IMG/VR virus record: IMGVR_UViG_3300042484_002006
Source of the DNA: a virus
Length of the DNA: 64,000 nt
Strand: one strand, 5' to 3'
A program made the translations under genes and the position numbers. A model generated the notes under the pieces. That model saw nothing but the letters and a program-made list of their open reading frames with translations. It did not search any database and was not told where the DNA came from. Positions 40,255-61,200 of the stretch are shown here, one piece after another. Each line of letters opens with the position of its first letter. Position 1 is the stretch's first letter.

Positions 40255-40268
40255 AAGGATAATAAATA

Positions 40269-41003: not shown

Positions 41004-41009
41004 GTAATA

Positions 41010-41975
41010 ATGCCAGATCCAAGATTGGATAATAAAAAGTTTTGGAAATTTGATAAAGAATATGATCCATTATCAAATCACATAGATAGAGTCTGGGCCG
41101 GTAGAGCGCCAGATAATGATAAAACTTTTAATAATTACTATGATTATTACTTTAGTGGAGAAGATGTAAAAGTATACATTGATGGTCTTTTTGGGCCAGA
41201 AGACGAACTAGATATTGCCTCCTTTGCATACTCGGTAAGGCAAGAGAAGCAACCTGTCTACGGATTCTGGTCATACAATTATGATACCGTAATGCTGGGT
41301 TCTAGAATTATTAGTGGCGAAATAACTATATTTACTAGATATCCACGCAGAATGACAGAACTATTAGAGAAAGCAGCAAAGTCTCGAGTTACGAATAAAG
41401 ATGTTAGAACACCAAAAGACACAATTATTTCACGATTAGATTCACAACTTTCTTCAGATGATGAAAGTAACATAGAAAAATATTGGGCTTACAGTCAATT
41501 GGATAGAATAACTTCTGACCCAGCAGTTTCTGGATTTGACACTAAAAACCTATTCAGCGCACATCCACCATTTAATTTTGTTATCTTGTATGGATTAGAG
41601 GAAACAGCCCTAAGTCCATTTAGCGCAAATGCGTCTGAAGATACAAGTACTTCTAGTTATTTGAATAACCAAATGTCCTTTGATGTTAACCAAAGAAGTA
41701 TTAAAATGGATAATAAAGTCAGCCCAATGAAAATAATACTCCAGCAAGTCAACTTAATGAATATGTCAACCAACTATAGCCCAGGTGGGCAACCCGTTGC
41801 CGAGAGCTATCAATTTATAGCTAGAGATTTTTATTTTACTGAAGCAAAACTTGATTTCATAAAAGGAATGTCTGCAAATAATATTTCAGATTCTGACGCA
41901 CCATCTAACGCTAATCCTGGCTCGCCCACGCAGGAGCAGGTAATGGGTGATCCAAACACAAGTTATAATGGTTAA
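41010..41975 (+). CDS. Tail-tube paralogue 3 (more divergent)
   Basis: YFSGEDVKV...FAYSVRQEKQPVYGF...RIISGEITIF...HPPFNFVI. Confidence 0.75.
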   Translation: MPDPRLDNKKFWKFDKEYDPLSNHIDRVWAGRAPDNDKTFNNYYDYYFSGEDVKVYIDGLFGPEDELDIASFAYSVRQEKQPVYGFWSYNYDTVMLGSRIISGEITIFTRYPRRMTELLEKAAKSRVTNKDVRTPKDTIISRLDSQLSSDDESNIEKYWAYSQLDRITSDPAVSGFDTKNLFSAHPPFNFVILYGLEETALSPFSANASEDTSTSSYLNNQMSFDVNQRSIKMDNKVSPMKIILQQVNLMNMSTNYSPGGQPVAESYQFIARDFYFTEAKLDFIKGMSANNISDSDAPSNANPGSPTQEQVMGDPNTSYNG

Positions 41976-43245: not shown

Positions 43246-46200
43246 TTGATACGCGATCCAGGACCAATACAAAACTTAGGGTATGGCGTAACATCTAGAG
43301 ACTTGCCCGCTACTGAGGGCGAATCTGATGGCGTAGCGCCAAACTCAGGTATGGTAAGCCGTGCCTTAAATGGGCACCCCATTACAAGGTTCTTGGCCTC
43401 AACTGCATCTGTCATGGTTGCCGCAGGAGTCGCATCTAAGTTAACTAAAAAGGGTGGACTAAAGCTAGGAAAATTCCTACAAAAATCTGCTGACTCAGGC
43501 AATGGGGTTTCAACAAGAGTAGTGCAAAGCGCTCTTCAAATTCGCCGTCAATTAGACGAGCTACAAGGCGTCAGCAGGTATGTCGACAGTGGCGAAGATT
43601 TATACAGTAAATTAGTTGCGTATGATAATTCTGGAAAATTAACTACAGGTTATCATGGAATGGTCAGTGAAAGAGCTGGGTATCAATATCTAACCAAAGA
43701 AGAAAAGAACCTCGCAGGATCTGGATTCCTGACTGAACCTACAGCAGTTTGGTCCTATAAAGACCAACTACAGCAAAGGTTAGTTAGAGCTGGACGCAGA
43801 ATGCCGTATGAATTGCCAGCAATGTACGGCGCAGAAAAAGCAATTGTTGATCCACTTTTCGGTAATCGTGAAGAAGGACAAAGAAAAATAAAATGGTATA
43901 ATCCAGCAGACGTAATTACTGATTTTACTAAATCGTCCTTGACAATGATGGCGACAATGATTGCTCCATTCGAAGCTCTTGGAGCTGCAGCAGGAGCTGG
44001 TAAAAGTTCATTAAATAATCTTCGTTATTCAATGAATGATATGCGAAATCTAACTCCATTTAATAAAAAAGTACGCAAAGGGTTTGTTGATATAACAGAA
44101 ACTTTAGCAGATGTTGGTCACGACTTCGCTACACTAACTAATAAGTTTTTAAGAACTTCAGCGCAGACTTCTGGCGGACTAAGCGTTGCCACAAAAGCTT
44201 ATACGGAAAATCAACAAGGATTTGTACAAAATCTTCACAGCTTAAGACATGGCGTTAAAGCAGCACGCGATCAACAAATTGCCCAAGGAGCATCTAAGGA
44301 AGCTATTAGAAAAGCTGGCTCAGGTGCTTTCCTTAAGGGATTTACGGATTCATCTGGAAATACTTCATCTGGAATTACAGAACTTCCTCCAGTTTTTAGG
44401 GGCCTAAGAAAGGCTTTTGTTGCCGGTAAAGATGAATACAAAATTCTCGGCAAGGGATATGATGCCCTAGAGAATTCAATTGCACACTCCAGAGTATTGA
44501 AGGCAATGGGAGGTACCCCCGAACATGCACAAACGCTACAAAACGCAATGCAAAGAATTCAATCGCAACACTCCAGTAGATTATCTAGTTTTGCCACTGG
44601 TGTTAGGGTCATGGGAGGCGGAGGTCCAGGAGACTCAGCGGTTACTAGATCTGCATTTGGTTATGGCCATCAACACGACGCATTTAAGGATCTATTAGAA
44701 AATCAATTAATTTCACGAGGCTTAGAAGGAAAACAAGCTAAGCAATTTACCGACTATCTCAAAGTATCATTGCCTAAGCAGAATATGCACAGCACCAATA
44801 TAATAACTATTGGTAAAACTAAGATATATGAAGATGGTGCGGACGCAGTAGATCTAAGCGATGACTTTTTTGCAAAAATAATTAAAAGATATCGTGGAAT
44901 TTCTGGTGGAAAAAGTTTTGATGATGTAATTAAACCTGATGCACTTAGAGCTTCAGTCGAAGACGCAAGAGATATCTTTGCATCAAAAGAATTTCAAAAA
45001 GGTTTAAATAATAAAATACAAAAGAATTGGAATAAATTCTATAGAGATGATTTAACCACCGTTGGTGGCGGAATGCTCAAGCCGATGAAGGCTTCCTACA
45101 ATGATTTTATTGGCCCACAAACAGCAGCTAAAACGGAATTCCTACAAAGAAAAACAGCTCAGACTCTAGGTATCAAATTAACAGACGATGCCGGAAGGCA
45201 AGTATCTAATGACGTTATTGCCGGAGGCTTAAGAAATCGTGGTTTTGACCCCAATGCGTTTACTGATCTAAGAGCATTTTTAATTAAGAATCGTCAAATG
45301 TCTTCTGGTGTTATTGGCGGAGGATACAACTTATTTGGAATGAAGTCCCTAACAATTGACGAGGCTCGTCAGTCTGGGCGCTTCACGCACATGAGGCCAG
45401 ATGAACAAAAAATAATTCATGACTTAGCTTCACGAATGGCCATTAATGATCCAGTTTCTAAATCAATTGGATTCAGTAAACTTGATGGAGTATATCAATC
45501 TAGATCAGGTCAAATATTAGATTTTACATCAGTTAAATCTACGTTCACTAAAACGGCAAACTTTTTTGCTTCAGAATTTAAAATTCCTATATTAGGTTTT
45601 AATCCAGCTGACTTATTTGGTTATAGATCATTCTCAGAAATGGCCAACAGATCCCCATTGCAGTATGTTTCTTCTAGAACCGTACAGCCATTTATGCCCG
45701 AAGGAGCTCAGAGCAAAGCAGACTTCCATATGTGGTTTAAGACCAAGGGCACTAAGGGTAAATTGATGTCTTTTAGGACGGACAATCTGTCTGACGCAGT
45801 CCATAGTACAGTGATGAATGGTACATATAGAGCACTTCCAACTAACACTACAGACTTACTCACTAGACACACGCGCTACGCATCAAATATGCAGGGCGAA
45901 ACAATTAATGAGATCAGAGATTCAAGTGGTTCAAAATTCCTAGATAGAATTCTTGGCGGAGAAAGAGCAATACGTTTCAAGAGAAAAATGAGTATTGACT
46001 CTGAACAGCCAAACTCTTTATTTAGTTTAGCTTCTAGATTTAAAGGTCGTTCAAGTGATGTAAATAATCATGGAGTTATGTCTCGATTATTATCTGGGGA
46101 AGATGTCAAATATAATTCTGGTGGCAAAGAAAAAATAATAAAATTATCCGTAGGACAGAATAAAGAAATTGGTGTAGTAGATAATTTTGGAAATATAGTA

Positions 46201-49200
46201 GATGATTTTGCAGAAGCAGATATTCTAAGAGGATATCAATCCTTAAGAAAAGAAGCTTTCCAATATGGGACTCCAACTAAACTTATCAAAGAATTAGAAA
46301 CTAGCAGGCCAGATTTATTTACATTTGGTGGAAAAAAAGTTAGTGAAGCAGTTACTGAAGTTCAAGCTGTGCAATTTGCCGAAGAACTTTTAGCAGCACA
46401 AAAGTTAACATCTCAACAATTAAGAGCTCAGGGTATAGATCCGACTTTCTTGAGTTCCTCTGCATCAAGAATTAAGTACTTAATGCAAGAAACTAATCTA
46501 AATGCAATATCTCAAATGGCTGAAAAGTCTCCAACTATTACAACTAGATTAGATCAATTAAAAAATGAAATATTTAGATACGTTTCACAAACCAACCAAA
46601 TGCAACTTGGAGGCGGAAGTTCTGCAGACATATTTATTGAGATGCAAACTGCTATTAATAAAATGGTTAAAAGTGGAGCAATTAGTTCCTCAGAAAGAGT
46701 TGAAGCTCAAGCTGCAGCTCTATCGAGCATGTTTAATATCAGCGCATTTAAAACTTTTCAACACTCAGCGTCAAATATCCAGAATGCTCGCGCGGGCGCA
46801 GCAGAAATGTTCGGTCTTTCAACTCAAAATCCTAGTCTAAAAAATGTCTTTGATCCTTTTTCAAAGGCTGAAGTAAACCAAATTAGTAGTGGTATTCGTA
46901 AAAAATTCGCACCAGCACTTTCGCTAAGGCAAAGAGCTTTTGGAACTTCAGGCTATAAGGTTGATGATTTAGCTGTTGACCCATTAGGTTCTGGACAAAG
47001 TATCACAGTAGTGCCAACTTTCGGAACGGTGTTTGGCAGAGATCCAATGGGAGCCATTAAGAGCGCAATTGGCTTGACAACTTATTCAGATCCACAGAGT
47101 TTTTCTATGGGCAGCGTTCCTATCTCGCAAGGTGTAGAAAGATTAAATAGATATTTTGGCACTTTGGGTGGTCAATTAAACGTATCAGATTTTAAAGGTC
47201 CATTAGATCTTTTTGCTAGAGGAATGGTTGGCAAGCGAGTATTACCATTATATGCAACCGGTGTGACAGCTTTGACTATAGATCGAACGTTGGGTGGAGC
47301 CGTTAACGGTAAGGATGATAACGGAGAAAGAATTTATTCTCCACTAGTCCTTGGCCAAGTGGCTAAAGGAGCAGTTGAACTACAATCATTATCTGCAGGT
47401 ATAGCTCCTGGTGGAATGAGCTATGAAGAAAAGAAAGAGCAGTTAACCGAAGGTGAAGTTCCAATCAGGCAGGGTAGATGGTGGCCACTTGGAAATACCC
47501 CATTTAAGGGCGGAAAAATTCAGTATTACAGACCTTCTTGGTATCGTAAACTCCAAGCAGGAGCAATGTTTACCAGTGACACCTATGGAAGTCCAGCTGA
47601 AAAATTCTTATACTATAACGACATTTCACCACTAAGACCTTTTGACCCATATAGATTTGAACGTAAACACTATGAGGATAGGCCATATCCCGTTACTGGT
47701 GAATATTTCTCTGGTCCATTTGGTCCGCTCGTGCCCCTTGCTAATATGACAGTCGGAAAGCTCTTAAAGCCCCAAGTTCGAATGCATGAAAACGAAACTG
47801 CACAAGGTTTAGCAAACTACGTTAGGGCTGGACAATCAGGTGCCTACGACGCTTCTGCCTATGGGCAAACTCCAAGTTATGTCAATGGATTGGGCTTCAC
47901 TAGAGAAATGGGCGGAGGAGGCTCTGGAGGGGCCATAGGAGGCCTTGGAATGATGGGTGGAGGTGCACCTACCCCTGGATCTATCGGAGGCGCAGCAGCA
48001 GTTTCTGGAATGAACTCAATGCTAGCCAGTAGAGCAGGTAGCACGGGCGCTGCAGGATCAATGGTTAGGTCTTCACTAAAAGATATAAACTCTCAATACA
48101 GCGATTTGTCCTATGGTCCGCCCAGGGTGCCTGGTGTAATGGCTCCCAGAATAGTTGGAGCTGGAGCTCCGTTGGAGCCCAGTACTAGTTCTTTCCAGGC
48201 AGGTGAGCTTGGATTTAGAATGCAAGAAATGGCAGGTATCTACGGGTTTGCTTTTGCTAATGCAAGAAAGACATTGGGATTTGGGCAAGCAGATTATCAG
48301 CCACAAAGAAGTGTTTTACAATCAGCATCAAAAGCCTATGGAACTACTAGAGCATTCTGGGATCTTAACTTAGGAGGCTTGGGAGACGCTCCGTTAGGAA
48401 ATAAAGAAGGCGTAGGTAACTTTGAATTTTCTGAAATTGTTAGACGATTCATTCCAAAAGAAAGAACTAATGTTGATTATTTAAATCCAATAGAAAATAC
48501 TATGGGAAAGAAATATCCATTCCTTCCTGGGTCTGAATATTTTACAGACTTCACTAGAGGGGATCCATTTACAAAGGTTCAAGAAGGTGAATTAAGACTA
48601 CCCGGAGTTGGTTACGAAAGATTTAATAGACTTAACCCAGATTCAACTGGTCGATATGGAGCGTTGGATCAACTTAAAATATTGGGTGATGTTGCGCCTT
48701 ACTCACAACAATATAAAATATTAGATAAAAAAATTGACAGCATGAATTTAGGTCCAGCCGAAAGAAACCAAGTAGCTGATATTAGATCTCAAGTTCAAAG
48801 TATGACAACTAAAAATGAATTCACAGATTACAAATATAAAGGATCTTCTGCCGAAGAAATGGGGCAACATCCATTGAAGTTTGGCGCAGGAAGAATGGGA
48901 GAATATCTAGCTCACTCTGACAACTTTGTTGTGAGCAAGACAATAGGCAAGAGGACTGCTACTGAAGATTGGGAAAGAAAACATGTCTACGGCGCCACTT
49001 TCCCAGAATGGCAAAGACCATTTGAAAGTTATATTCAGCCAATGATTAATAAAGCCACACAAAGAGATCCAATAACGGCAGCAGCCGGACTTGGTGTAGC
49101 TGGAGCACTATTTGGAAGAACAGCTAAAGCTAAATTGTTTGGAACAGCAATTGGCGTAGCGACTGGATTAACTGCATCTGCATATGGGCAAACTTCAGAA

Positions 49201-49887
49201 TTAGTAACCGGTGAAAGATTCGTGCCAGCAAAAAGAAAGAAAGAATTAGCACTCGAAGAGTACTCTGATATTTTAAGCTACGTAAAAAGCAAAAGATTAG
49301 AAACTATGGCTAAAGCTTCTGGCGATGGAAAAGCAGCGATGCAATATAATATGGCTGCAAAAAGAACAATGTATGGAGCTGATCTTTATGGGAAAGATAT
49401 CGATACATTATCTTTAGCTATCCCTAAAAGAAAAAGAGAACACTTCAAAGCAATGATTAATGCCCCAGAAGAAGAAAGAGGTAAAATACTTTCTACTGCG
49501 GGACGACTTGAAAGAAGAATCTACGAAGCTTCTTGGGGGATGGATGTTGAGAAGAGACCAGATTTAGGAGAATATTTTACTCGTCATGAACTTCCAGATT
49601 TATCATGGGAAGGTTGGCATCCTAATACCAATATGGATCAAGTAAAGATTAAAATGGGACAATCAATGGGTCTAGAAATGTCGCAGATGGGTTACTATCC
49701 TCAACAGATCCGTGAAGCAAATTTAGCTAATCCAAGCTTTCCTCAATTTGGGAATGGTGGAGATAGACAAGATACTTTATATAAATTGCGCGGACTAATG
49801 AATGGTTCTGGATTTTCTGGAAGTGTTACTCCAGTTATGAATCCTTTTGGCTCACAGGGTATTGACGTTTCGGCAGGAGTTAGATAA
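43246..49887 (+). CDS. Tape-measure-like / ejected virion protein (2213 aa)
   Basis: Position after the chaperones; size; Ala/Gly-rich helical regions with hydrophobic segments; TTG start with AAGGAG RBS. Confidence 0.7.
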   Translation: MIRDPGPIQNLGYGVTSRDLPATEGESDGVAPNSGMVSRALNGHPITRFLASTASVMVAAGVASKLTKKGGLKLGKFLQKSADSGNGVSTRVVQSALQIRRQLDELQGVSRYVDSGEDLYSKLVAYDNSGKLTTGYHGMVSERAGYQYLTKEEKNLAGSGFLTEPTAVWSYKDQLQQRLVRAGRRMPYELPAMYGAEKAIVDPLFGNREEGQRKIKWYNPADVITDFTKSSLTMMATMIAPFEALGAAAGAGKSSLNNLRYSMNDMRNLTPFNKKVRKGFVDITETLADVGHDFATLTNKFLRTSAQTSGGLSVATKAYTENQQGFVQNLHSLRHGVKAARDQQIAQGASKEAIRKAGSGAFLKGFTDSSGNTSSGITELPPVFRGLRKAFVAGKDEYKILGKGYDALENSIAHSRVLKAMGGTPEHAQTLQNAMQRIQSQHSSRLSSFATGVRVMGGGGPGDSAVTRSAFGYGHQHDAFKDLLENQLISRGLEGKQAKQFTDYLKVSLPKQNMHSTNIITIGKTKIYEDGADAVDLSDDFFAKIIKRYRGISGGKSFDDVIKPDALRASVEDARDIFASKEFQKGLNNKIQKNWNKFYRDDLTTVGGGMLKPMKASYNDFIGPQTAAKTEFLQRKTAQTLGIKLTDDAGRQVSNDVIAGGLRNRGFDPNAFTDLRAFLIKNRQMSSGVIGGGYNLFGMKSLTIDEARQSGRFTHMRPDEQKIIHDLASRMAINDPVSKSIGFSKLDGVYQSRSGQILDFTSVKSTFTKTANFFASEFKIPILGFNPADLFGYRSFSEMANRSPLQYVSSRTVQPFMPEGAQSKADFHMWFKTKGTKGKLMSFRTDNLSDAVHSTVMNGTYRALPTNTTDLLTRHTRYASNMQGETINEIRDSSGSKFLDRILGGERAIRFKRKMSIDSEQPNSLFSLASRFKGRSSDVNNHGVMSRLLSGEDVKYNSGGKEKIIKLSVGQNKEIGVVDNFGNIVDDFAEADILRGYQSLRKEAFQYGTPTKLIKELETSRPDLFTFGGKKVSEAVTEVQAVQFAEELLAAQKLTSQQLRAQGIDPTFLSSSASRIKYLMQETNLNAISQMAEKSPTITTRLDQLKNEIFRYVSQTNQMQLGGGSSADIFIEMQTAINKMVKSGAISSSERVEAQAAALSSMFNISAFKTFQHSASNIQNARAGAAEMFGLSTQNPSLKNVFDPFSKAEVNQISSGIRKKFAPALSLRQRAFGTSGYKVDDLAVDPLGSGQSITVVPTFGTVFGRDPMGAIKSAIGLTTYSDPQSFSMGSVPISQGVERLNRYFGTLGGQLNVSDFKGPLDLFARGMVGKRVLPLYATGVTALTIDRTLGGAVNGKDDNGERIYSPLVLGQVAKGAVELQSLSAGIAPGGMSYEEKKEQLTEGEVPIRQGRWWPLGNTPFKGGKIQYYRPSWYRKLQAGAMFTSDTYGSPAEKFLYYNDISPLRPFDPYRFERKHYEDRPYPVTGEYFSGPFGPLVPLANMTVGKLLKPQVRMHENETAQGLANYVRAGQSGAYDASAYGQTPSYVNGLGFTREMGGGGSGGAIGGLGMMGGGAPTPGSIGGAAAVSGMNSMLASRAGSTGAAGSMVRSSLKDINSQYSDLSYGPPRVPGVMAPRIVGAGAPLEPSTSSFQAGELGFRMQEMAGIYGFAFANARKTLGFGQADYQPQRSVLQSASKAYGTTRAFWDLNLGGLGDAPLGNKEGVGNFEFSEIVRRFIPKERTNVDYLNPIENTMGKKYPFLPGSEYFTDFTRGDPFTKVQEGELRLPGVGYERFNRLNPDSTGRYGALDQLKILGDVAPYSQQYKILDKKIDSMNLGPAERNQVADIRSQVQSMTTKNEFTDYKYKGSSAEEMGQHPLKFGAGRMGEYLAHSDNFVVSKTIGKRTATEDWERKHVYGATFPEWQRPFESYIQPMINKATQRDPITAAAGLGVAGALFGRTAKAKLFGTAIGVATGLTASAYGQTSELVTGERFVPAKRKKELALEEYSDILSYVKSKRLETMAKASGDGKAAMQYNMAAKRTMYGADLYGKDIDTLSLAIPKRKREHFKAMINAPEEERGKILSTAGRLERRIYEASWGMDVEKRPDLGEYFTRHELPDLSWEGWHPNTNMDQVKIKMGQSMGLEMSQMGYYPQQIREANLANPSFPQFGNGGDRQDTLYKLRGLMNGSGFSGSVTPVMNPFGSQGIDVSAGVR

Positions 49888-52800
49888 TGGTAAATATTAA
49901 TGAGATGTATAAAACACTGCCACAAAGAATGGCGGCTGCTAGATCAGCATTAATGAGAACTACCTATGGAATGGGTGGTGTTATAAAAATAGAGCCAGAT
50001 GGCGATGAAATTAAATATGTATTAACCGCTACTGGTGAAAGTTTTAAAAATGTTGATAGAGCATTTAATGCAGCTGCTTCACTTCATGTTACACAGGTTA
50101 ACCCACTCCTAAAACCAAAACTAGGAAATAAAGTTAGTGGTATGGCTGAGATCATGGAGGATATCAGAGGAAAAGCAAGCAATTTTAATGCTGGCCAAAT
50201 TCAAATGTTACAAAATGCAGGTATTGACGTAAATGCGATAAAAGATATGCAGGTTGACCTCCTAACCATGCACGCTGATAAGGGAGGCGTAAAAGGAGTA
50301 GCCAGCAGAATCCAAACACTAAGAGACCGTGGAACTTTGCATGGTATTACGATAATGGATGATGAAGGCGCACGAATGTTGAATATGCGTGTAGGCCAAA
50401 AAATGCTAACGAGCTACCAATCAAACTTACTCCTTTCAATTACTGGTCACGACATGTTAGATCCAGAATTATTCTCAGCCATTATGGGCAAGGGCACTTC
50501 TCCATCAGAATCTTTAATTAAACAATTAATGAAAGTTGGAAAAAGATTCAGATCATTAGCATCTGAAAGAGAAGTCTCTTTAGCAGGAAATGATCTAGCT
50601 AGTTTTATTGGTGGAAAGCTGAAAGCAGAGGACTTTCATAAATCAATGTTAGTAGTAGATCCTCAATATGAGCTACTGCAGAAGATGGCTCACGGGAGCG
50701 CCTATGACTTTGGCGGAGGAAAAAAGGGAGCAGAATTAGCCGCCTATTACAAAAATGCAGAAGCTGAAGATTTTATTGGCAGCATAATGGGGAAACTATC
50801 TACTAACGAACAAGACGAATTAAAAAATGTAATTAAATCAGGTAATTTTACTTATGGGGGACGAGGAAAATTTGCTAGCGATCAATTAATGACACATTTA
50901 AAAGATAATTTTATTACAGTTAATGGTGTAGTTGATCAAAATCGAGAAAAAATTGTTAAAGAAATGTTTGATAATATCGAATATGCGTATGATGGTTCTG
51001 ATTTAATAAATTCAAAAAATATAGATGGCTATATTAAAAATATGCAAAAAAGAGCAAGTAGGATAAGAAAGCAAATCGACGATTCGCAGAAAGGTATTAG
51101 GCCACTGACAGCAGAAAAAATGGAAGAACTTGCTATGGAACTAAAAGATGTAAGTAACATCGAAAGACAAGTTTCTCGTGCTAAGAATACAGGTGGGCTG
51201 GAACAATTTACTGGTAGAGGTCACAGCGAAAAATATGGAGATATTAAAACAGCTTTCCAGTCAGTAGAATTTGATCCTAAATTAAATAAGTACTCAATGA
51301 TTGTTAGCAAGATGGGATTCAAAGGCGAACTTGGTCTAGCTGGTGAAAGTAACATACTTAACTTAAGCGGAATGGGAGCAGGGCGCGATTTAGTCTACGC
51401 TGACCCAGTATCAACAGCTTTTCATCCAGAAATTTTTGCTGATCCAGATACGATTAAGGCAATGGAAAAAAGATCTCAGGCTATCCTTCAAGAATTTGAA
51501 GGAGCCATTAAGAGCGGAACGGTTCCTAAGCGAGTAAGAGCAATGTTGGAACAGGCAGCAGAACGTGACATAAGTCATCTGCCCTCGTATGCTCGTGGAT
51601 CAGCACAGAGAAATAGGGAATTTGCAAAAGCTATTACGGATATGATAAATAGAGGAATTAGCCCTAATCAAAATCCAACTATGATGAATATGATGCATAC
51701 GTTCTTTGCAACAGAGGCATTCCGAGAAAAAGGCAATTTTGTTCAAGCTGTTCTTCCTGATACTTATCGCTTTGCTATTGATAGTGAAGCAGTCCTCATG
51801 GGAACTAAAAAAGGAAAAATGCTACTCAACAAGGGTAGAGGTTACGAAAAGATATCTATGTCTGGCCTAAATGCCGCACAAGAAGCAGCATTAGCAAGTC
51901 AAGACATTCTAAAGTTCAGAGTAAGTGGACATAAGATGATGTTGTCAGCGGATGCTATTGGTCAGTTTAGGCACGCCCTTGGTGGATTTGACTTAGACGA
52001 CAAGGCACTACCTAAGCTTTTGACATATGAACAAAAAATAGCAGATGGTCAAGGTGGATTTAGAACAGTAAATAGATTAGGATTTAATATTTTCAGACAA
52101 CCATCTGGTCCTGAAGAATTAATTTTTGCTCGCATGAATATGGATCAAGAAACTATTAGAGGATTATTTGGTGGAGGAGATGATGTCTTTGCAGTAAAAC
52201 ATTTTAGGGACGCACTAGATCATCTGCAATCTACGACTACTCCCAAAGACGAATTGCATAAGACCTATTCTAATCTACAAAATATTTTAGATAAAAAACA
52301 TTTAAAATTAGATAAATCAGGCAATGTCATAAAAGATAAATACGGCAAAGCAATGGAAGCCGAATTATCTCCAAAATACTTTCAAGAATATGAACAAGCA
52401 ATTTATAATGTTTTTGAAAGATTAGAGGCTGATGGAGTGACCCAACTCCAAAGAATGTCACCAGAAATGGCTGCCAAAATCGCTCAGTATGGATCTTCTT
52501 CATTGAAAACATCTGAGTTAGCGTTTGAGCCTAGATATACTAGAGAAGGAGTATTTAAAGCATTTACTAAAGAAGGTGCTTTTGATATGAGTGAAGAATT
52601 ATTATCTACAATGCGAGCTAATAATGTTGACCAGGCGACAATTAATAAATTATCAAGAGCAAAAAACTTTGACGAAATGCTCAACCTAATGCAAGCAGAT
52701 TATAAAAGTAATCCAGCAGTACGAGCAGCATTTGCAAGCTCAATCGAAGAACTTGGCATAAAAAAGAGCATTGAAGGTGCAGATATTCTTGGTCTATATG

Positions 52801-54782
52801 TGAATAGATCAATGGCTGTGGGTTCTTCATTGAATCAATATGAAGCTTTTTTAAATGACGCAGGGACATCTTCTGCAGTTAAAAAATACATGTTAGAAAA
52901 CTATAAAATTGGTTTACTTTCGCAAGAAACAGCCATTGACCTTTCGGTCAACCTTGCGGGCACAAAACAATTAATGGGAAATGTTACGGAGCTGCTTGCT
53001 AACTTAACCGCATCAGACGCTAGCATGTATAATGAAAAAGGAATACAAAAAGCGCTAGGAGAGTTAGGGATTGCTGGCGCTGGACAAAAGGGCATGACAC
53101 TAGCTGGCTTTGGAGAACAAAGTATGGCTAATCTTGGAAAAATGATTGGATTTAATCGCGCCGTTGGTTCTGCCCAGGATGATCTCCAATTAGGTATTGA
53201 TGAATTCTTATTGCGTGAAAGAATTAAAGGTAGCGATACTAAAATTATTCTAGATAATATGATCCAAGGAATGCGAGATGCGCAAACTGCAGGACACGCA
53301 TCTCAAGTAGATTTAGATGAAACAATCAAGCAACTTCAAGCACTTTCTGCTAGCAATGATGAAGGTAAAATAAAGGAAGAATTAATAAAAAGAATTGGCC
53401 TAGGCGCAGACCACAAGTATGCCTCAATATCTAAAGTTCATGATGTGGGTGTCAGATATCAAGCTTACCTAGATAAAGTAAGAAGAGCCTCGATATCCCG
53501 AATGCCAGCAGATGACATATTATCCTCAACATCTACCTCCGCTGAAGCAGATTCTCTTGCCAGAAGAATTATTGCAACGCATAAAGATTCTCTAGAGCAA
53601 ATTTTTAGTGTTACAACTGATGAACTAAAATTAATGAGTGAGCCTGAAAAATTCAAGCACGCGGCTATGTTAGACAATGTTGGAGAAAATGTATTGCGCA
53701 CTATTGGTCAGGCATCGCAGTTAGAAAACATTAATGCGCTAGATCTTATCACCGCCATAGATAAACAAACGCTTGGCGCAGGTTCAAGAATAGATGTTGG
53801 AGGTCTAAGATATTTGAGCTCAGCTTTCGATGGCAATATGCCACAAGAGGTTTCGCAAGTAGCTGAAATGATTACAAGTGCTAGAGACTATAGAAGAATA
53901 AAATTCTATGAAAGCTTCGATCAAGACTACGCTAACCAGGTCCAAGCAAGCTTGGGTAATAAAAATACTATGAATGAAATTACAGAAGAAGCCCAAAGAA
54001 GACTAAAACTTGTTAGTGAAGCTCAGGAAAGAATAGATAATGGTACGAACAGCATGTTTGATATTTTCGAAGCAACCAACGAACAAAATGATGTACTAAG
54101 AGCCTTAGTGGGTGAGTCAGATCAGATTGCTGATGAAATGGTCAGGGAAAATTCTAATCACCAAGCAACCCTTATACAGCACCAAATGAGAAGAAGAGAA
54201 TTAGAAGATGCCGGACTCATAAGTCCAACTGGACAAGATGGCGTGCTAGAAAAGGGTGGGACTATAATAGACTCACAACAAGCACAGGCTGCTTTTGGTG
54301 ATGATTATAATTTAACGGATGACATTATTAGATCTGTTAATGACTTAGATAATGGATTAGTGGAGAATAAAGCTGTATATAAAAGAATAGGCGAAAAAAT
54401 GGGAGATCTTAAAGATCTTTTTAAAAACCCCACTATCAGGAAAAGTACCCTAGCATTAGGCGCTCTTATAATGGGAAGCTTCGCCTACACAGCGATTAGG
54501 GACAGGACTCATGAAGATATGACAGGACCTCCCCTATTGCCAGGTGGATCAGCCTATGAAAGCGGTTTTCCAAATCGAGTTCCCGAAATTGGCACTTTTG
54601 GTGGACCAGGTTATGATCCTGGCGTTAGCTATAAGGTAAATCTATATGGAGACCAAGACACCGTAAGAAGATTTAATGCTGCTGCCGGAGGGTTAGTTAA
54701 TGGCAATATTAACACTACTATGTATAATAGAATCCCCGATGTGGCTCAAGATCCATATACAAGAATGGCAGCCAATTATTAA
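49887..54782 (+). CDS. Putative single-chain two-barrel (YonO/crAss/QDE-1-class) RNA polymerase-like virion protein with C-terminal hydrophobic helix (1631 aa)
   Basis: Ordered motifs YDGSDLINS (D369), TGR...DIKTAF (R444/K454), IVSKMGFK (K479), YRFAIDS, GGFDLDD (702-705), FRQP (R737), LGLYVN (G969/N973), QETAID (D1018). Confidence 0.65.
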   Translation: MVNINEMYKTLPQRMAAARSALMRTTYGMGGVIKIEPDGDEIKYVLTATGESFKNVDRAFNAAASLHVTQVNPLLKPKLGNKVSGMAEIMEDIRGKASNFNAGQIQMLQNAGIDVNAIKDMQVDLLTMHADKGGVKGVASRIQTLRDRGTLHGITIMDDEGARMLNMRVGQKMLTSYQSNLLLSITGHDMLDPELFSAIMGKGTSPSESLIKQLMKVGKRFRSLASEREVSLAGNDLASFIGGKLKAEDFHKSMLVVDPQYELLQKMAHGSAYDFGGGKKGAELAAYYKNAEAEDFIGSIMGKLSTNEQDELKNVIKSGNFTYGGRGKFASDQLMTHLKDNFITVNGVVDQNREKIVKEMFDNIEYAYDGSDLINSKNIDGYIKNMQKRASRIRKQIDDSQKGIRPLTAEKMEELAMELKDVSNIERQVSRAKNTGGLEQFTGRGHSEKYGDIKTAFQSVEFDPKLNKYSMIVSKMGFKGELGLAGESNILNLSGMGAGRDLVYADPVSTAFHPEIFADPDTIKAMEKRSQAILQEFEGAIKSGTVPKRVRAMLEQAAERDISHLPSYARGSAQRNREFAKAITDMINRGISPNQNPTMMNMMHTFFATEAFREKGNFVQAVLPDTYRFAIDSEAVLMGTKKGKMLLNKGRGYEKISMSGLNAAQEAALASQDILKFRVSGHKMMLSADAIGQFRHALGGFDLDDKALPKLLTYEQKIADGQGGFRTVNRLGFNIFRQPSGPEELIFARMNMDQETIRGLFGGGDDVFAVKHFRDALDHLQSTTTPKDELHKTYSNLQNILDKKHLKLDKSGNVIKDKYGKAMEAELSPKYFQEYEQAIYNVFERLEADGVTQLQRMSPEMAAKIAQYGSSSLKTSELAFEPRYTREGVFKAFTKEGAFDMSEELLSTMRANNVDQATINKLSRAKNFDEMLNLMQADYKSNPAVRAAFASSIEELGIKKSIEGADILGLYVNRSMAVGSSLNQYEAFLNDAGTSSAVKKYMLENYKIGLLSQETAIDLSVNLAGTKQLMGNVTELLANLTASDASMYNEKGIQKALGELGIAGAGQKGMTLAGFGEQSMANLGKMIGFNRAVGSAQDDLQLGIDEFLLRERIKGSDTKIILDNMIQGMRDAQTAGHASQVDLDETIKQLQALSASNDEGKIKEELIKRIGLGADHKYASISKVHDVGVRYQAYLDKVRRASISRMPADDILSSTSTSAEADSLARRIIATHKDSLEQIFSVTTDELKLMSEPEKFKHAAMLDNVGENVLRTIGQASQLENINALDLITAIDKQTLGAGSRIDVGGLRYLSSAFDGNMPQEVSQVAEMITSARDYRRIKFYESFDQDYANQVQASLGNKNTMNEITEEAQRRLKLVSEAQERIDNGTNSMFDIFEATNEQNDVLRALVGESDQIADEMVRENSNHQATLIQHQMRRRELEDAGLISPTGQDGVLEKGGTIIDSQQAQAAFGDDYNLTDDIIRSVNDLDNGLVENKAVYKRIGEKMGDLKDLFKNPTIRKSTLALGALIMGSFAYTAIRDRTHEDMTGPPLLPGGSAYESGFPNRVPEIGTFGGPGYDPGVSYKVNLYGDQDTVRRFNAAAGGLVNGNINTTMYNRIPDVAQDPYTRMAANY

Positions 54783-55247: not shown

Positions 55248-58200
55248 ATGGCTATTAATAATACTTCTAAAGATTACATAAAAGGTATCGTAGAAAATGA
55301 TGATCTTTATTTTTGGCTATATGATTTTTTAAATCCGGATAATAAAACCAGCACTGCTGGAACAAAAGAACAGATAAGAGAATTTTTTCTATACGGAACA
55401 ATTGACGGAGATGATGTAAACGGCTTTAGTATCGCTGCCGGTGGCAATATTATCGCACTACAAGAAAGTGATCCTTATTCTGTCGCCGTCTTTAACTATT
55501 GTATATCTATGGCAGTGGTTGGAGCTGAAGTTTCAAATGTGGCAATTGTTCCAAAAGAATATGAGGCAGTAGCTCAAGCTACGGCAGCAATATTTCAGGG
55601 ATTTGAATTAAGTTCTTTCCCAGCTTGGATCCCACAAAGCACACAAGAACAATCAGCTGCAGAGAAGAACGCAAAGCTGCTCAGGGAACATTTTGATTAT
55701 AACAACATAATGTTTTATGAAGATAGATCATTTTTTACATATCAAAAGTATGCCTTCCAAAGACTAAACACTTGGTATGAATTTTCTGCAGGAGATAATG
55801 ATTTATCTGAGGAAGAATATTTAGAACTAGAAAAATATGAATCTACTTATTCATCAGAGTTAGAAGTAATTAACTCAGGCGAAGATGTAACTAGTGCATT
55901 TAATAATGAAGCTTTTATTTCTTTTATAGCAAAAGCTTATAATAACGTAAATGAAACAGATGAAAAATATATCTTTGATCCCTTACTCAGGGCAGCTTAT
56001 GGAAATAGAGATATTAAAAATAGTAGTAATTTTTTCAATATCTTTCGGGGAACTAATTCACAAGTTGGCAATCTTCAAGCCCACGAAGCATCAACATTAT
56101 TTAATAAAATGGAAGAAATTGGATTATTTAATCTAGCATCCTATGCCTATGAAATTTCTAACTTCGCAAAGAAAAGATTGAGAACTAAAGATACATTGCA
56201 AGCCTCCGCAGATAATGTAGTTGATGCTACTGTCGATCTACCCTGGTTAATTTCATTGGGTGAAGTTATACAAAGGTTAAAGCGCGATCCTCTAACTTTT
56301 GCAGGAATAAATTATTATTTTCCAAGCCTATCAGTCTTTCTAGTTGATGCTCTAGCTGTTGTTGGCGATTACTCTGATAATGGCAAGGGTGGAGGAGAAG
56401 AAGATACTCTTAACAACGCAGATGACTTTGCACTATCTTTAGAAAAAGCTTTTGGAGTTACTTCCGTACTTGTAGCTCCCGGCATTGAAGAGCGTCGATT
56501 TGGAATTGGTTTTGTCGAAAGTGCAAGAGCCATTTTTCAGATGGCTTACAAGTTTACTAATACAGCGCAACGTATTGAAAATGTATTAAAGACATCACCA
56601 TTTAGAGCTAATATAGCTCCAAATACTCCGGATAATTTTCATCTAAGATTAGGTGCAGCAAACTTCTACATCCCCCCTGTATCAATAGATGTAAATTCTA
56701 GTTTTAAAACTGGAAGTCTTACTGGCGCGGCAATTAGACAAAAAAATAGTCCTAAGTTTAATTCTGGATATAAAGAAACCAGTATTAGAATGAGATTATT
56801 CTTTCCAAATTATGAAGAAATTTGGGGACTGTCAGTAGATGCGCTATCAAAGATAGATTTAAATGATACATTCAAAATTGATTTTAAAAATGGCGGAGAT
56901 AGTGAAATAAAGATAGATAAATTCTTATCTTCATTGAGAGGACTAGTTGCCGCGTTTAAGTATTCTCCGATTCTTCCAATTAAGAATCAATATTTAAATT
57001 CTGTTCATGGAATAACAGCAGTAGCTCTTTCTAATATGAGTATCTCAACTATTCCGAACTACCCTTTTGCATTAGCTGTTGATATTGAATTATTAAATTT
57101 TAATCATGAACCATTTCTCCCAATGATTAAAGATTTCAATCAAGCAATACATTGGGGCAAATATCGTCATTATATGGGTAAGGCAGCAGGACATCTTCAT
57201 GACTATGTTAATGAAGAGTTTTTATTAAAGCAGTCTGACGTAAAAGAAACCGATGTAACTCCTATGACTATTACTGGAAAAGCTGTAACTGATTCTGATA
57301 CTGACACAGATCCAGAAACACCCGCAGTTCCACCGAATGTATTTGATAATGATGTATTAAATATCAACGTAATTTCTGAATGGAAGAATGGAAACAATAT
57401 CTCTCTCTTCGCCCCAGCTGAAACTCAAACAAAGATATATTTGCCCGATACAGCTTCATTCAGAACTAAACAAGAAAAAATGTTTACTGATCTAGGACAA
57501 AGTACTTGGCAAGGACTACTTTCTAAGTTTGGCATAGATGTTAATCAATCAGATTCATATGGAGTATCTTTACAAGAAGTTCAGGATATATCGCTTTCAA
57601 GTACTTATTCTAAATCAATAGCAAATACAATAAAAGACTCCATAGATATATTGACAGCTGGCATTACATCAGATGATAAAGCTGAACAAATATATGCATT
57701 CTTTGTCACCTCGTTTATTGCAGAAAATAAAAAGATTAATAAGATTCAAGGAGATTGGTTAAAGAGTAATTTTAATACTTCAGCAATGGATTATCCTGAG
57801 CAAGATACATATGTTTTCCAAGGAAAATTTATAAATAACGTATCCCTTAATGGCATGAAAGATACTTTTACTGATATCTCAAGAAAACCAGCATCTTACC
57901 TAGACTTAATAAAGAGCGGAATAACTCAAGAAAAGATTAACAAACTTGGAATTCCAGATCCTGAGGTAACAGATGAGATGAGAAATTCTATTGAACAAAA
58001 TGTTCAAAATGAATTAGCTCAAGCATTTAGCGTATCTTTATATGAAAGATTCTTTAAGAGTGGACCTATTCAATCTTTAATGGAAGCAGCCAGAGCAAAA
58101 GGCAATTACAATGTAGATGAAGAGGGAAATGTAATTAGAGAAAGCGGTTACTCTTTTAAGGAATGGGAAGTTCCTATGATACGAGTTGATTTGGATCCTC

Positions 58201-61200
58201 AATCCGTAATCGTTAATGGAGTGACAGTGTCCATGGGCAACAGCCTAGCTAAACTACAAATACAAATGCAGGGTGAGCCAACCTATCAACACATTGGGGG
58301 CAGGGACAGCAGTATCAATATATCTATGACTGTAATTGGCGAAAAAGAACTAATTAAATTAAAAAATGTTTTTGATCATATATCCAATTTAGCAAGGTTA
58401 GAACATGCCACCGGAGTAATCGGCTTCCTAGGTATTAAGAACATTATTACGGCGCTGTGTGGAATTAAATATGTTTTACCACTTAGCTATAATGTTAGCA
58501 CAATACCAAATTATCCTCACGCATACAATGTCCAATTAAGTTTAATAGACTTTGACATATTTCAGCAAAAACGAGAAGAGCTTAGTAGCACTCAGCAAAA
58601 AGAATTAATAGAACAATTTAGTACAAAGAAAAATCCATTTTTAAGAATTAAACAATTCTGGGGAACCTTCAACGCCTACCCAGATTTTCCTTTAAGTCTA
58701 AAAAATTCCGAAGGAGATGTTGTAGGGCATTTGGATCCAGATTATTATTTCAGAAGTTTTGAAATGTTTGATAAAGATGTAATTAATAGTTTTAGTACAC
58801 AGCATCCAAAAATTCAAGATTACAACTTCGATACTCATTCCGATGGTTCTGGTGGATGGGGCGGTGAAGGTTCTGATGTGTTAGGCATAACTGCAAAAAT
58901 ATTAGAATTTATTCAATTATATAATAATACAGAAGATAACATAGCTTCTTCAAATATTGTCGAACAGATGAAAGATTATATAATTGCAGAACAAATTGGA
59001 TTGTCTAGATTTATTCATCTATTAAGAAATGTTATTACCGGTGATACAGAATTTAGTAGTTCCGCAAATGTTCAGTTGTTAACTGATTTTATCACATTGA
59101 CCGAAGAAACTAGTGAAACAAATCCATTCTTTGATGCAGTTACTCCAGCTCGTTTTCAGCAGGGTGACTTATCCCCCAATGATGCAGCAAACGCTAGCTC
59201 TATTGAAGCAGCTTTGACCGGAGCCTTCAGTCTATCAAATGAAGAATTTGTAAGTTTTGATCCAGATGAAGTTGATTTTCACAAACAGATTTTTACAGTA
59301 CCCGCATCAGATCCAGATGACATTTTAAATAATAAAATTCCATCTATATTACAAACAGCAGGAGGCACTCATTTTGGATACATTAGTAGAGACAATGGTA
59401 GATTTTACTTAACCGCTAACGGCACTAATATCAAAAAGGTCGTCGACGAAAGTGGTAATAGTAGTTCAGGAATTGTAAAATTTAGATCAAATTTCTTAAG
59501 AGACGTACAGACTCCAGAAAATGGAAATACTACTGTTAACACAGGGGTTCCTGGGGCAAAAGCAGTTTCAGAATATCAGAACGCCTACTCAGGAGATGTA
59601 CAATCACACTGGGAAACTATGATGGTCGACGCCTCTTACAGGGACATATCAGGGCGTATGATACGTGCGTTCCCAACATACATGCTATGGTTGATAGATG
59701 AAGGTGGCATGTTTGCGGGCGTTAAACTATTCGACAATTTCTATGGACTACAATCTATTATTGATTTCTCTGTAGTCAGCTCAGAAGATTTATTAGGTGA
59801 TACTTTAATTTTCAGAGTTTCCAATCTTTATAGTAAATTAACAAAAAATGAATCTAGTAAAATATTTAACCCTAATAATAAAGATGGAAACAATGATCCA
59901 CTTTCTTTGACTGATGGATTAACTTCTATTATTGAAAGAACTTTAAATATGTCAAGAAATATTCTTGGGCATATGAGAAATGAATATGTTGTTGACATAG
60001 CAAATATACGCTTGAAGCCAGGGGTAAGGGTCCATCTAAGAGCTGGTTATGGGTCAAATCCCAATTCACTTCAAACTCTTTTCAACGGAATTATCACTAA
60101 TGTTGAACAAGGTGAAATAGTTACAATTACAGCACAGTCCGATGCAATTGAATTGGGCGCAGTAATTAATTCAACAAATAAAAAAGGCGATAGTGGAAAA
60201 ATCGATGGCGGTGTTGATACTGGCATGTATATGTCAGAGCCTAGAGACTTGATGGTAAGATTACTTTCCATGGGCGCATCCAGAACAAGGGAGGCTATAG
60301 CTCATGCTACAAGAGGAACGGTATTCTCTGAAAATAGATTTGGCATTAGACACTTTGGCAATATTCTATATGAACCATTAACTACGGGGGAACGAGCAAA
60401 GAACGACGCCATTCGAGATAGCATTACTGGAGCATTCAGTATTGCCGGAAGCAATAATAGTTTCATGAATAGGGCAGTTGGAATTACCGAGGGTTTTAGC
60501 ATGAATTATAGAGGTAATTCATTTTCGGCAGTAAGCCAACTATTTGCTAATTTCTGCGCTCAAGTAGATCTTGAAATATTTAAAAGAAATATCTATCCTG
60601 GAAATGGAACCGGAATTGCTCAGTTCCTTGGTGGAGACCTAGATGACGGATGGTCTACAGCAGCATCTTTAACTAAAGAGGATAGTTACAACGAAAGAAT
60701 GGAAGGCTATCTTGGTAGATTAACGGATAGAACTTGGAATGATTTAATCTCTAATTCAGAATTAGAAAATGATGGCCTATTAGACACTGGCGCAAATGGC
60801 ACATTAGATTTCTTAACTCAAGATAATCAATTGGTAAATTCAGATGGAAGAGCTGGATTAGTAAAAGGCTTATTTGCTGGCGGTATAACTGCAGGAGCTT
60901 TTGCACTAGGAGGACCAGCTACTGCATCCATAGCTGGAGCAGGATTGCTTGGAATACTACGTGGCAGAGGTGGCACTAATCTATTCAGAACTATGGGAAT
61001 CATATCTCCTAATTCCGATGATGATTTACCTGGTTTTGATGAAGTCTCATTTAGAGCTCAAACTTACATGAGAACTGTCTGGGATTTATTTCAAATGTGC
61101 GCAAAATTACTGCCTAACTATATCGTAGCGGTTAGACCATTCGAAGATAGATCAACAGTATTCTATGGTAAACCACATTGGCTCTATACATCTGGTGTAG

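What the first reader, a model, noticed from the sequence alone, without database searches (positions are those of the whole stretch)
51930..52200. Non-canonical catalytic loop (DLDD) and reversed motif order in the putative RNAP barrel
Seen: the Asp loop reads GGFDLDD, not the DxDGD/DFDID of characterised two-barrel enzymes, and the strand ending in RQP comes about 30 aa after it, whereas canonically RxP precedes the Asp loop. A second pseudo-symmetric element, RMNMD-QETIRGLF-GGGDD-VFAV (D765/D766), follows RQP. Inference: either a topologically permuted DPBB, or an enzyme whose metal-binding loop sits on the symmetry-related half of the barrel, or an inactive fold reused structurally. Any of these would be unusual for the family.
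Basis: partly seen in the sequence, partly recalled or inferred. Interest (0 to 1): 0.75.

Follow-up and report, generated by a model that had tools for sequence, protein, structure and literature searches.

The report
Phage tail-gene polymerase, unusual active site
An unannotated 1,631-residue gene among the tail genes of an uncultured, roughly 200-kb phage is predicted to fold like a single-chain cellular-type RNA polymerase whose metal-binding loop is one residue shorter than in all characterised relatives (D-x-D-D instead of D-x-D-x-D) and whose Arg-x-Pro loop follows that loop instead of preceding it, while the catalytic barrel itself does not look permuted.

Summary
ORF 49887-54782 reads GGFDLDD at residues 699-705, RQP at 737-739 and GGGDD at 762-766.

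In about 120 divergent relatives and 72 viral contigs the first loop is always [F/Y/M/H]-D-x-D-D, never DxDxD. It is always followed about 32 residues later by R-x-P. GGGDD is not conserved.

Two high-confidence AlphaFold models (pLDDT 86 and 88) match only single-chain two-barrel RNA polymerases at the top of unbiased searches of 48,161 PDB chains: QDE-1, plant RDR2, and Thermus phage P23-45 gp96 and gp64-type. The Z-scores are modest (5.3-8.6).

A model cut just after the loop aligns up to 10-12 residues past the catalytic Asp loops of QDE-1 and gp96. So DLDD sits at the canonical catalytic position.

Covariation places strand 629-633 in the slot of the canonical R-x-P strand, with Glu634 where R-x-P normally lies. 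It also places R737-Q-P next to the Asp loop through a hairpin.

My reading: an active two-barrel polymerase, normally threaded, with a shortened metal loop and a relocated Arg-x-Pro loop. It is probably delivered by the tail. Permutation, a loop on the symmetric half, and an inactive fold are not supported.

The scan has noted this family before on other DNA.

The parts
49887..54782 (+). 1631-aa ORF (P0001): single-chain two-barrel polymerase-like protein in the tail module. Its start overlaps the stop of the upstream giant ORF (TAATG).
   Evidence: about 112 homologues, 166 representatives and 173 IMG/VR contigs; no Pfam, PHROG, PDB-sequence or INPHARED match
50979..51401 (+). First barrel (DPBB-B / QDE-1 DPBB1-like), aa ~365-505, interrupted by a helical hairpin at aa ~376-435. 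Invariant D369 (nt 50991-50993), R444 (51216-51218), K454 (51246-51248) and K479 (51321-51323).
   Evidence: Invariance. By offset in the structural alignments, D369~QDE-1 D709, R444~R738, K454~K743, K479~K767. The equivalences are approximate, within about 6 residues.
51720..52043 (+). Second, catalytic barrel (DPBB-A / DPBB2-like), aa ~612-719: strands 612-615, 618-622, 629-633, a ~40-aa insert at 635-673, strands 674-680 and 683-686, helix 688-698, the Asp loop, and strand 706-719.
   Evidence: DSSP of two models; alignments to QDE-1 730-1023 and gp96 525-793; covariation contacts 632-683, 633-682, 631-686, 613-620, 611-713
51762..51788 (+). Strand aa 626-633 (R628 invariant) plus E634, in the slot where canonical enzymes carry the R-x-P 'Pro-gate' strand. 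No R-x-P here (family consensus RFAxxTE).
   Evidence: E634-G700 contact at 3.7 sd; 632-683 at 8.9 sd
51981..52001 (+). GGFDLDD (aa 699-705): invariant D-x-D-D loop, the proposed metal-binding catalytic loop at the canonical position, one residue shorter than DxDxD.
   Evidence: end-point test, with Asp-loop positions
52002..52094 (+). Long beta-hairpin, aa 706-719 / 725-736, leading away from the Asp loop and back to it.
   Evidence: DSSP; covariation ladder with i+j ~1443-1446, for example 715-728/729 and 719-726/727
52095..52118 (+). R737-Q738-P739 ... E744: invariant R-x-P (x = Q/D/T/A/R/G across the family) 32 aa after the Asp loop, brought next to it by the hairpin register (706 opposite 738). 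Candidate relocated Pro-gate.
   Evidence: S740/G741 covary with 508-512 (end of the first barrel) and with 611/625.
52143..52145 (+). D753, invariant or nearly invariant acidic residue after strand 746-750. The segment packs on strand 674-680.
52170..52184 (+). GGGDD (aa 762-766): not conserved in the family, not a second catalytic cluster.
52713..52853 (+). Long helix aa 943-989 carrying invariant G969, N973, R974 and nearly invariant Q984. Candidate bridge-helix-like element, unproven.
54384..54779 (+). C-terminal ~130 aa: a moderately hydrophobic stretch, then the most conserved block of the protein (GPPLLPGGSAYE ...). Function unknown; possibly a tail or membrane anchor.
43246..49887 (+). 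Upstream 2213-aa ORF of nearly constant length in relatives (2137-2234 aa): candidate tape measure protein.
   Evidence: no family match
55248..63998 (+). Downstream ORF of more than 2917 aa (over 3000 aa in relatives), hub-like, with a weak PHROG 'endolysin' match.

Best explanation
The ORF encodes a catalytically competent single-chain two-barrel (double-psi beta-barrel) nucleotide polymerase, most likely a DNA-dependent RNA polymerase. The first barrel supplies D369, R444, K454 and K479. The second, normally threaded barrel supplies the metal-binding loop D702-L-D704-D705 at the canonical place, between helix alpha2 and strand beta6. That loop has lost the residue that separates the second and third Asp in every characterised enzyme. 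The canonical Arg-x-Pro 'Pro-gate' at the end of strand beta3 is absent, and E634 sits there instead. An invariant R737-x-P739 is presented to the same neighbourhood from the return strand of a long hairpin that starts directly after the Asp loop. The gene lies between a constant-length giant ORF (a presumed tape measure) and the hub. It is single-copy and is the only polymerase-like gene detectable in near-complete relatives' genomes. It is therefore probably carried in or with the tail and ejected to start phage transcription.

Shown here: the motifs, their invariance, the predicted fold, its best matches, and the synteny. Inferred: metal binding by DxDD, the role of R-x-P, RNA as product, and virion delivery.
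For: Invariance of GGFDLDDK, R-x-P, E744, D753, D369, K454, K479, R628, R678, N973/R974 and D1018. Models with pLDDT 86/pTM 0.86 and pLDDT 88. Foldseek PDB top hit is the crAss-like phi14:2 virion RNAP 6vr4_A (E 0.07), with QDE-1 and RDR2 in the top 17. Unbiased VIA search of the 801-residue model: QDE-1 ranks first, Z 8.2, 368 residues aligned. Its second look: the top 7 are all QDE-1 or RDR2, Z 6.7-8.6, 303-373 aligned. For the 287-residue model, the top 5 of 48,161 chains are QDE-1 (Z 6.1, 219 aligned), P74-26 gp62, maize RDR2 and P23-45 gp96 twice. End-point test: model residue 280 (D705+10) aligns with QDE-1 1023 (D1011+12) and gp96 793 (D783+10). Covariation (Neff 132): the hairpin register puts 706 opposite 738; 629-633 is antiparallel to 682-686; E634 contacts G700. 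BFVD: weaker hits to crAss-type RNAP fragments and an annotated RdRP. Synteny is conserved in all 18 loci inspected. There is no PF00623 or PF00940 match and only one copy of this gene in four 92-100% complete ~200-kb genomes. A tail-delivered two-barrel RNAP has a published precedent (PMC10770324).
Against: All structural scores are modest (Z 5.3-8.6, Foldseek E >= 0.07). No sequence or profile method links the family to any RNAP: phmmer and hmmsearch against PDB found nothing, and hhalign against the crAss gp66 family gave probability 1.5%. The alignment to P74-26 gp62 ends at residue 341, 12 residues before its DYDGD at 353 in GenBank numbering; I could not check the PDB numbering. Residue-level superposition and 3D distances were not available. 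The covariation map is noisy at Neff 132, and invariant residues cannot covary. No characterised two-barrel enzyme is known to me to work with DxDD. No proteomic, transcriptomic or biochemical data exist and no cultured member was found. Bridge helix and trigger loop were not identified with confidence.
Confidence: 0.62

Rival explanations
1. Rewired (non-cyclically permuted) barrel: the strand ending in R-x-P (aa 725-739) physically takes the place of canonical strand beta3 inside the barrel. The barrel would then be threaded in a different order, which is the first reader's option 1.
For: No R-x-P at the canonical position, while R-x-P after the loop is strictly conserved and has the canonical form with a variable middle residue. 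In the model truncated before that strand, extra low-confidence strands appear at 653-657 and 671-675 that are not strands in the longer model.
Against: Strand 629-633 covaries strongly and antiparallel with 682-686 and touches helix 688-698, as expected for a resident beta3. The truncated model lacking the R-x-P strand still aligns to QDE-1 and gp96 through the whole barrel. The R-x-P strand covaries mainly with its hairpin partner and with 746-755.
Confidence: 0.15
2. The metal loop lies on the pseudo-symmetric other half of the barrel, and the canonical loop position (about 762-766) is vacant.
For: Counting strand-strand-helix-strand units from aa 674 would put DLDD in a first unit and GGGDD in the equivalent loop of a second unit (DSSP). 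A low-confidence hhalign path aligned the D753 region with the gp66 Asp loop.
Against: The end-point test places DLDD, not 762-766, at the Asp loops of QDE-1 and gp96. QDE-1 DPBB2 already begins about 90 residues before its Asp loop (Y919), matching a barrel at 612-719. There is no strand after 766 in the model. The hhalign probability was 1.5%.
Confidence: 0.05
3. It is a two-barrel fold with some other chemistry, or none. It could be a DNA polymerase or primase-like enzyme, as PolD is. It could be an RNA-dependent polymerase, as QDE-1 and RDR2 are. It could be a structural tail-lumen protein that has lost catalysis.
For: The best structural matches are RdRPs. The DxDxD signature and the canonical Pro-gate, which reads the 2'-OH in QDE-1, are both altered. 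In some relatives the gene is split into 2-4 ORFs.
Against: About 20 invariant polar residues at the positions of catalytic and nucleic-acid-binding residues argue against a purely structural role. The relatives encode a separate DNA polymerase-like gene in the window. The phage precedents with this fold in virions are DNA-dependent RNAPs (PMC10770324; bioRxiv 10.1101/2020.03.07.982082). The split forms keep all motifs.
Confidence: 0.15

Closest known systems
Thermus phage P23-45 gp96 (and P74-26 homologue): virion two-barrel RNAP fused to the tape measure protein (PDB 8H2M/8H2N; PMC10770324)
   Same: A single-chain two-barrel fold encoded in the tail module next to or within the tape measure. 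It is among the top 5 structural matches (Z 5.3-5.4), and its Asp loop aligns by end point. The presumed delivery route is through the tail.
   Different: gp96 is fused to the tape measure in a siphovirus. Here the gene is a separate ORF after the presumed tape measure in a contractile-tailed ~200-kb phage. gp96 has canonical R-N-P about 46 aa before DFDGD; here the loop is DxDD with R-x-P 32 aa after it. No sequence similarity was detected. P23-45 also has a second, non-virion paralogue; none was found here.
Neurospora QDE-1 and plant RDR2 (cellular RNA-dependent RNA polymerases; PDB 2J7N, 7Y7P, 7W82, 7ROZ)
   Same: The best structural matches over both barrels (Z up to 8.6, up to 373 residues aligned). 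By offset, the invariant residues fall on QDE-1 D709, R738, K743, K767 and D1007-1011.
   Different: These are eukaryotic and dimeric, with DxDGD and an R-x-P Pro-gate at 962-964, 45 aa before the Asp loop. Identity is only 9-12%, and there are no shared accessory domains.
crAss-like phage phi14:2 gp66 virion RNAP (PDB 6VR4)
   Same: Foldseek's top PDB hit. It is a giant virion protein with a single-chain two-barrel core and a non-textbook loop (DFDID followed by K, as here DLDD-K).
   Different: gp66 keeps the DxDxD spacing, with R-I-P 39 aa before it. It belongs to a podovirus. Profile-profile comparison found no relationship.
Multisubunit RNAP beta' (E. coli RpoC)
   Same: Catalytic barrel with an Asp loop. 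It also has a conserved Pro/Gly-rich segment (SPANGEP, aa 492-498) 28 aa after the loop, at a spacing similar to RQPSGPE here. This is a resemblance only.
   Different: NRAP at 424-427 precedes NADFDGD at 458-464. The barrels sit on two subunits. No structural match above noise appeared in the lists.

Membership tests
Two-barrel (DPBB) RNA polymerase superfamily | Two double-psi beta-barrels in the QDE-1/gp96-like mutual arrangement | tested here: met
   Only two-barrel single-chain RNAPs lead the unbiased searches of two models. Z is modest (5.3-8.6), with 116-373 residues aligned spanning both barrels.
Two-barrel (DPBB) RNA polymerase superfamily | Signature D-x-D-x-D (DxDGD / DFDID) metal loop in the catalytic barrel | tested here: not met
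   The loop is D-x-D-D in all 122 representatives and in all loci. Three Asp are present, but the spacing is one residue shorter.
Two-barrel (DPBB) RNA polymerase superfamily | Acidic loop located between helix alpha2 and strand beta6 of the catalytic barrel | tested here: met
   End-point test: aa 715 (D705+10) aligns with QDE-1 1023 (D1011+12) and gp96 793 (D783+10). The gp62 end point is discordant by about 24 residues in GenBank numbering.
Two-barrel (DPBB) RNA polymerase superfamily | R-x-P Pro-gate at the end of strand beta3, 35-46 aa before the Asp loop | tested here: not met
   There is no conserved R-x-P upstream; the consensus is RFAxxTE. The invariant R-x-P lies 32 aa downstream. 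Canonical positions.
Two-barrel (DPBB) RNA polymerase superfamily | Conserved basic residues (two Lys) and an Asp in the other barrel | tested here: met
   D369, R444, K454 and K479 are invariant or nearly so. By alignment offset they fall within about 6 residues of QDE-1 D709, R738, K743 and K767.
Two-barrel (DPBB) RNA polymerase superfamily | Bridge helix and trigger loop after the catalytic barrel | tested here: inconclusive
   Long helices follow at 768-801 and 943-989, the latter with invariant G969/N973/R974. The alignment to QDE-1 extends to 1148-1164, but no residue-level mapping is possible.
Two-barrel (DPBB) RNA polymerase superfamily | Template-dependent RNA synthesis | not testable with these tools
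   Requires biochemistry.
Tape-measure-fused virion RNAP (P23-45 gp96 type) | [quoted passage not shown] | tested here: not met
   It is a separate ORF whose ATG overlaps the stop of the upstream 2213-aa ORF (TAATG). The same arrangement is seen in the relatives.
Tape-measure-fused virion RNAP (P23-45 gp96 type) | Presence in the virion and ejection into the host | not testable with these tools
   Only gene position supports it. No cultured member was found.
crAss-like virion RNAP (gp66 type) | Sequence or profile homology to gp66 and a DFDxD motif | tested here: not met
   hhalign probability 0.1-1.5%. The motif is DxDD. There is only a weak fold match.

The most novel reading that the evidence does not exclude
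This would be a distinct, unannotated lineage of two-barrel RNA polymerases that works with a D-x-D-D metal loop. Its minor-groove/2'-OH-sensing Arg-x-Pro loop has moved from strand beta3 to a hairpin after the catalytic loop, with a conserved Glu at the vacated site possibly helping metal binding. The enzyme would be the only RNA polymerase of a widespread clade of ~200-kb contractile-tailed aquatic phages, delivered through the tail beside the tape measure. That is an independent re-engineering of an active site otherwise invariant from bacteria to eukaryotes.
Probability: 0.4. Interest if true: 0.85.

Novelty: new variant of a known kind. Interest (0 to 1): 0.7.

Why it matters
The DxDxD loop and the preceding R-x-P Pro-gate are among the most conserved features of cellular-type RNA polymerases and are used as the search signature for new ones. 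A large natural family that keeps the fold but shortens the metal loop and moves the Pro-gate would show how much that active site can be rebuilt. It would explain why motif- and profile-based surveys miss the gene. It would also add a third kind of tail- or virion-delivered two-barrel polymerase, in phages that otherwise appear to have no RNA polymerase. The family is easy to test: an expressible core of about 800-1200 residues, clear point mutants, and a published assay for the nearest analogue.

Tried and rejected
- **Family libraries.** Pfam and PHROGs on the ORF and its giant neighbours gave nothing relevant.
- **Sequence searches.** phmmer and a 41-sequence profile against PDB sequences gave no polymerase hit. 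tblastn against 50,697 phage records found no match.
- **Prophage search.** A scan of 185,579 prokaryote genomes found no relative, so no prophage or host clue.
- **Profile comparison with crAss gp66.** hhalign of the family against gp66 alone and against a 34-sequence gp66-family profile was not significant. Its path is not trustworthy.
- **Foldseek PDB.** E-values never reached 0.001, so the fold assignment rests on ranking and on VIA-align.
- **Second look at the small model.** It added nothing about beta'.
- **First local MAFFT run.** Timed out.
- **R678 as the counterpart of the Pro-gate Arg.** I considered the upstream 'F-R678-x-x-x-H' motif and dropped it. Covariation and strand counting put R678 in beta4, and 629-633 in the beta3 slot.
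- **RQPSGPE as a homologue of beta' SPANGEP.** The spacing is similar but the secondary structure between differs, and there is no statistical support. I keep it only as a lead.
- **Hydrophobicity scan.** No strong transmembrane segment in the ORF at a strict threshold.
- **Link to 'moraphages'.** A possible link to the published aquatic jumbo phages said to lack RNAP and tape measure genes (PMC12619734) could not be tested.
Full report
**The sequence.** The finding lies in a 1631-codon ORF at 49887-54782 on the + strand.
- GGFDLDD is at residues 699-705.
- RQP is at 737-739, so R737 is 32 residues after D705.
- GGGDD is at 762-766.

**Genomic context.** The window is a phage with these recognisable genes:
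- a large terminase (12723-14579);
- a portal (23708-25378);
- a major head protein (28971-30029);
- two sheath-like genes and tube-like paralogues.

The tail module continues with a 2213-aa ORF (43246-49887), then this ORF, a 147-aa ORF, and a hub-like ORF of more than 2917 aa. This ORF's ATG overlaps the upstream stop (TAATG).

**Conservation.** No curated library, PDB sequence or deposited phage genome matches the protein. It nevertheless has about 112 close to distant homologues of very similar length. It also has 166 representatives at 50% clustering and relatives on 173 IMG/VR viral contigs of up to ~210 kb. None of 185,579 prokaryote genomes carries it.

In 41 full-length sequences, down to 21% identity, these positions are invariant:
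- L698-GGFDLDDK-706, R737, Q738, P739, E744 and D753;
- D369, G370, K454, K479, D506, R628, R678, G969, N973, R974 and D1018.

In 122 representatives the loop is always [F/Y/M/H]-D-x-D-D, with x = L, F, M, N, H or Q, and never D-x-D-x-D. The downstream motif is always R-x-P, with x = Q, D, T, A, R or G. Every IMG/VR locus that covers the region shows the same. GGGDD is not conserved: the consensus there is LFGxxxxF.

**Fold.** I made two AlphaFold2 models.
- Residues 340-1140 with 52 diverse homologues: pLDDT 86, pTM 0.86.
- Residues 436-722: pLDDT 88.

The fold searches gave these results.
- Foldseek on the larger model put the crAss-like phi14:2 virion RNAP first (6vr4_A, E 0.07), with QDE-1 and maize RDR2 in the top 17.
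- VIA-align against 48,161 PDB representatives put QDE-1 first (Z 8.2, 368 residues aligned).
- The second look listed only QDE-1 and RDR2 entries in the top seven (Z 6.7-8.6, 303-373 aligned). Everything below was a 60-residue helical match.
- For the small model, the top five of 48,161 chains were QDE-1, P74-26 gp62, maize RDR2 and two crystals of P23-45 gp96. gp62 is the homologue of the P23-45 non-virion RNAP.
- BFVD gave three significant uncharacterised proteins from uncultured phages. Weaker hits were crAss-type RNAP pieces and an annotated RdRP.

The scores are modest, but the top ranks contain only single-chain two-barrel polymerases. I accept the fold assignment with about 85% confidence.

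**Where the Asp loop sits.** I cut the second model at residue 722, just after the strand that follows DLDD. The end of any alignment then reports which element that strand matches.
- The alignments end at model residue 280, which is aa 715, or D705+10.
- In QDE-1 the end is residue 1023. Its catalytic Asp are D1007, D1009 and D1011, so this is D1011+12.
- In gp96 the end is residue 793. Its loop is 779-DFDGD-783 (the P74-26 copy is confirmed), so this is D783+10.

If DLDD sat in the first half of the barrel, the alignments should have stopped about 45-50 residues earlier. QDE-1's DPBB2 already includes Y919, about 90 residues before its loop. That matches a barrel spanning 612-719 here.

The same alignments give approximate offsets (within ~6 residues) for the first barrel:
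- R444 on QDE-1 R738;
- K454 and K479 near K743 and K767;
- D369 near D709, the first-barrel Asp that helps hold the second metal.

One discordant point remains. The gp62 alignment ends at 341, whereas DYDGD is at 353 in the GenBank sequence. I could not check the PDB numbering.

**Motif order.** In the comparators R-x-P precedes the Asp loop:
- QDE-1: 962-964, 45 residues before;
- E. coli beta': NRAP 424-427, with NADFDGD at 458-464;
- gp66: R-I-P at 1322-1324, with DFDID at 1361;
- P74-26 gp62 and its tape measure: R-R-P and R-N-P, 39 and 46 residues before.

Here nothing of the kind is conserved upstream. So the reversed order is real at the sequence level and holds across the family.

**Is the barrel permuted?** I computed mean-field direct couplings on 220 non-identical family sequences (Neff 132).
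- The positive control worked. The predicted hairpin 706-719 / 725-736 gives a ladder with i+j of about 1443-1446.
- That register puts K706 opposite Q738, so R-x-P returns to the foot of the Asp loop.
- The strongest long-range coupling in the barrel is 632-683 (8.9 sd), with 633-682 and 631-686. Strand 629-633 therefore runs antiparallel beside 682-686 and touches helix 688-698. This is the slot of canonical beta3.
- The end of that strand, where canonical enzymes have R-x-P, is the nearly invariant E634, which couples with G700 (3.7 sd).
- S740 and G741 couple with 508-512, the end of the first barrel. This places the loop at the inter-barrel cleft.

I read the barrel as normally threaded, with the Pro-gate function supplied from a new place if it is retained. 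The map is noisy and I could not inspect coordinates. I leave 15% for a true strand replacement.

**Function and delivery.** In the 18 related loci inspected, every one with enough upstream flank to read the neighbour intact has a 2137-2234-aa ORF directly upstream. In L053 the neighbour is cut by the locus end, and in L057 it is in pieces. That length constancy is what one expects of a tape measure. All 18 also have a hub-like reading frame downstream, over 3000 aa where intact.

Four relatives' genomes are estimated 92-100% complete. They show no beta'-type or T7-type polymerase domain and only one copy of this gene. Together with the P23-45 precedent, the most likely role is a tail-delivered polymerase for the first phage transcripts. 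This part is inference from position and analogy.

**Novelty.** The kind is known: a single-chain two-barrel polymerase, virion-associated in phages. The DxDD loop and the R-x-P after it are not features of any characterised member that I could find. The family has no annotation in any source. Earlier notes of this scan describe the same family on other DNA. I used them only as leads, and my threading result differs from one of them.

Noticed in passing
L057 10536-14890 and L074 (same arrangement); L033, L059, L034, L045, L046 near 9950-14624: In some relatives the gene is split. In two independent contigs, one from a 100%-complete 209.7-kb genome, it forms four consecutive ORFs. In five others it forms two ORFs, with the break about 60 residues after R-x-P (about aa 790 here, a poorly conserved, gap-rich stretch). 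All motifs are kept. These could be natural splits into subunits, frameshifting, or assembly errors.
   Followed up: partly
window 43246-49887: The upstream 2213-aa ORF has no family match. It is Gly/Ala/Ser-rich and has nearly constant length (2137-2234 aa) in the relatives where it can be read intact, as expected of a tape measure. Its stop overlaps the polymerase ATG (TAATG), which suggests translational coupling.
   Followed up: partly
window 54384-54779 (aa 1500-1631 of the ORF): The C-terminal ~130 residues are the most conserved part of the whole protein (GPPLLPGGSAYE and following), after a moderately hydrophobic stretch. There is no match to anything. It may anchor the protein in the tail or a membrane.
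   Followed up: no
window 55248-63998: The downstream ORF of more than 2917 aa (over 3000 aa in relatives) matches PHROG 20474, annotated 'endolysin', over aa 1450-1707 (E 3e-95) and has two hydrophobic segments. It may be a hub fused to a cell-wall-degrading module.
   Followed up: no
window 39515-41975: Three consecutive paralogous ORFs (225, 244 and 321 aa) all match PHROG 9206, annotated 'major head protein', although they lie between the sheath genes and the tail-assembly region. They look more like tail-tube paralogues.
   Followed up: no
window 35587-37206 and 38218-39489: There are two sheath-like genes separated by a 310-aa virion protein gene.
   Followed up: no
BFVD entries A0A6J5M9G6, A0A6J5NTF7, A0A6J5MEC6: Three 'uncharacterized proteins' of uncultured Caudovirales are significant structural matches to the model (E 1e-7 to 3e-6, 9-18% identity). 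They are probably distant or truncated members of the same polymerase family already in UniProt.
   Followed up: no
literature: PMC12619734: A 2025 paper on aquatic jumbo 'moraphages' reports that it found neither a tape measure gene nor any RNA polymerase homologue in those phages. If that lineage carries this gene family, those statements would need revision. I could not test the link.
   Followed up: no
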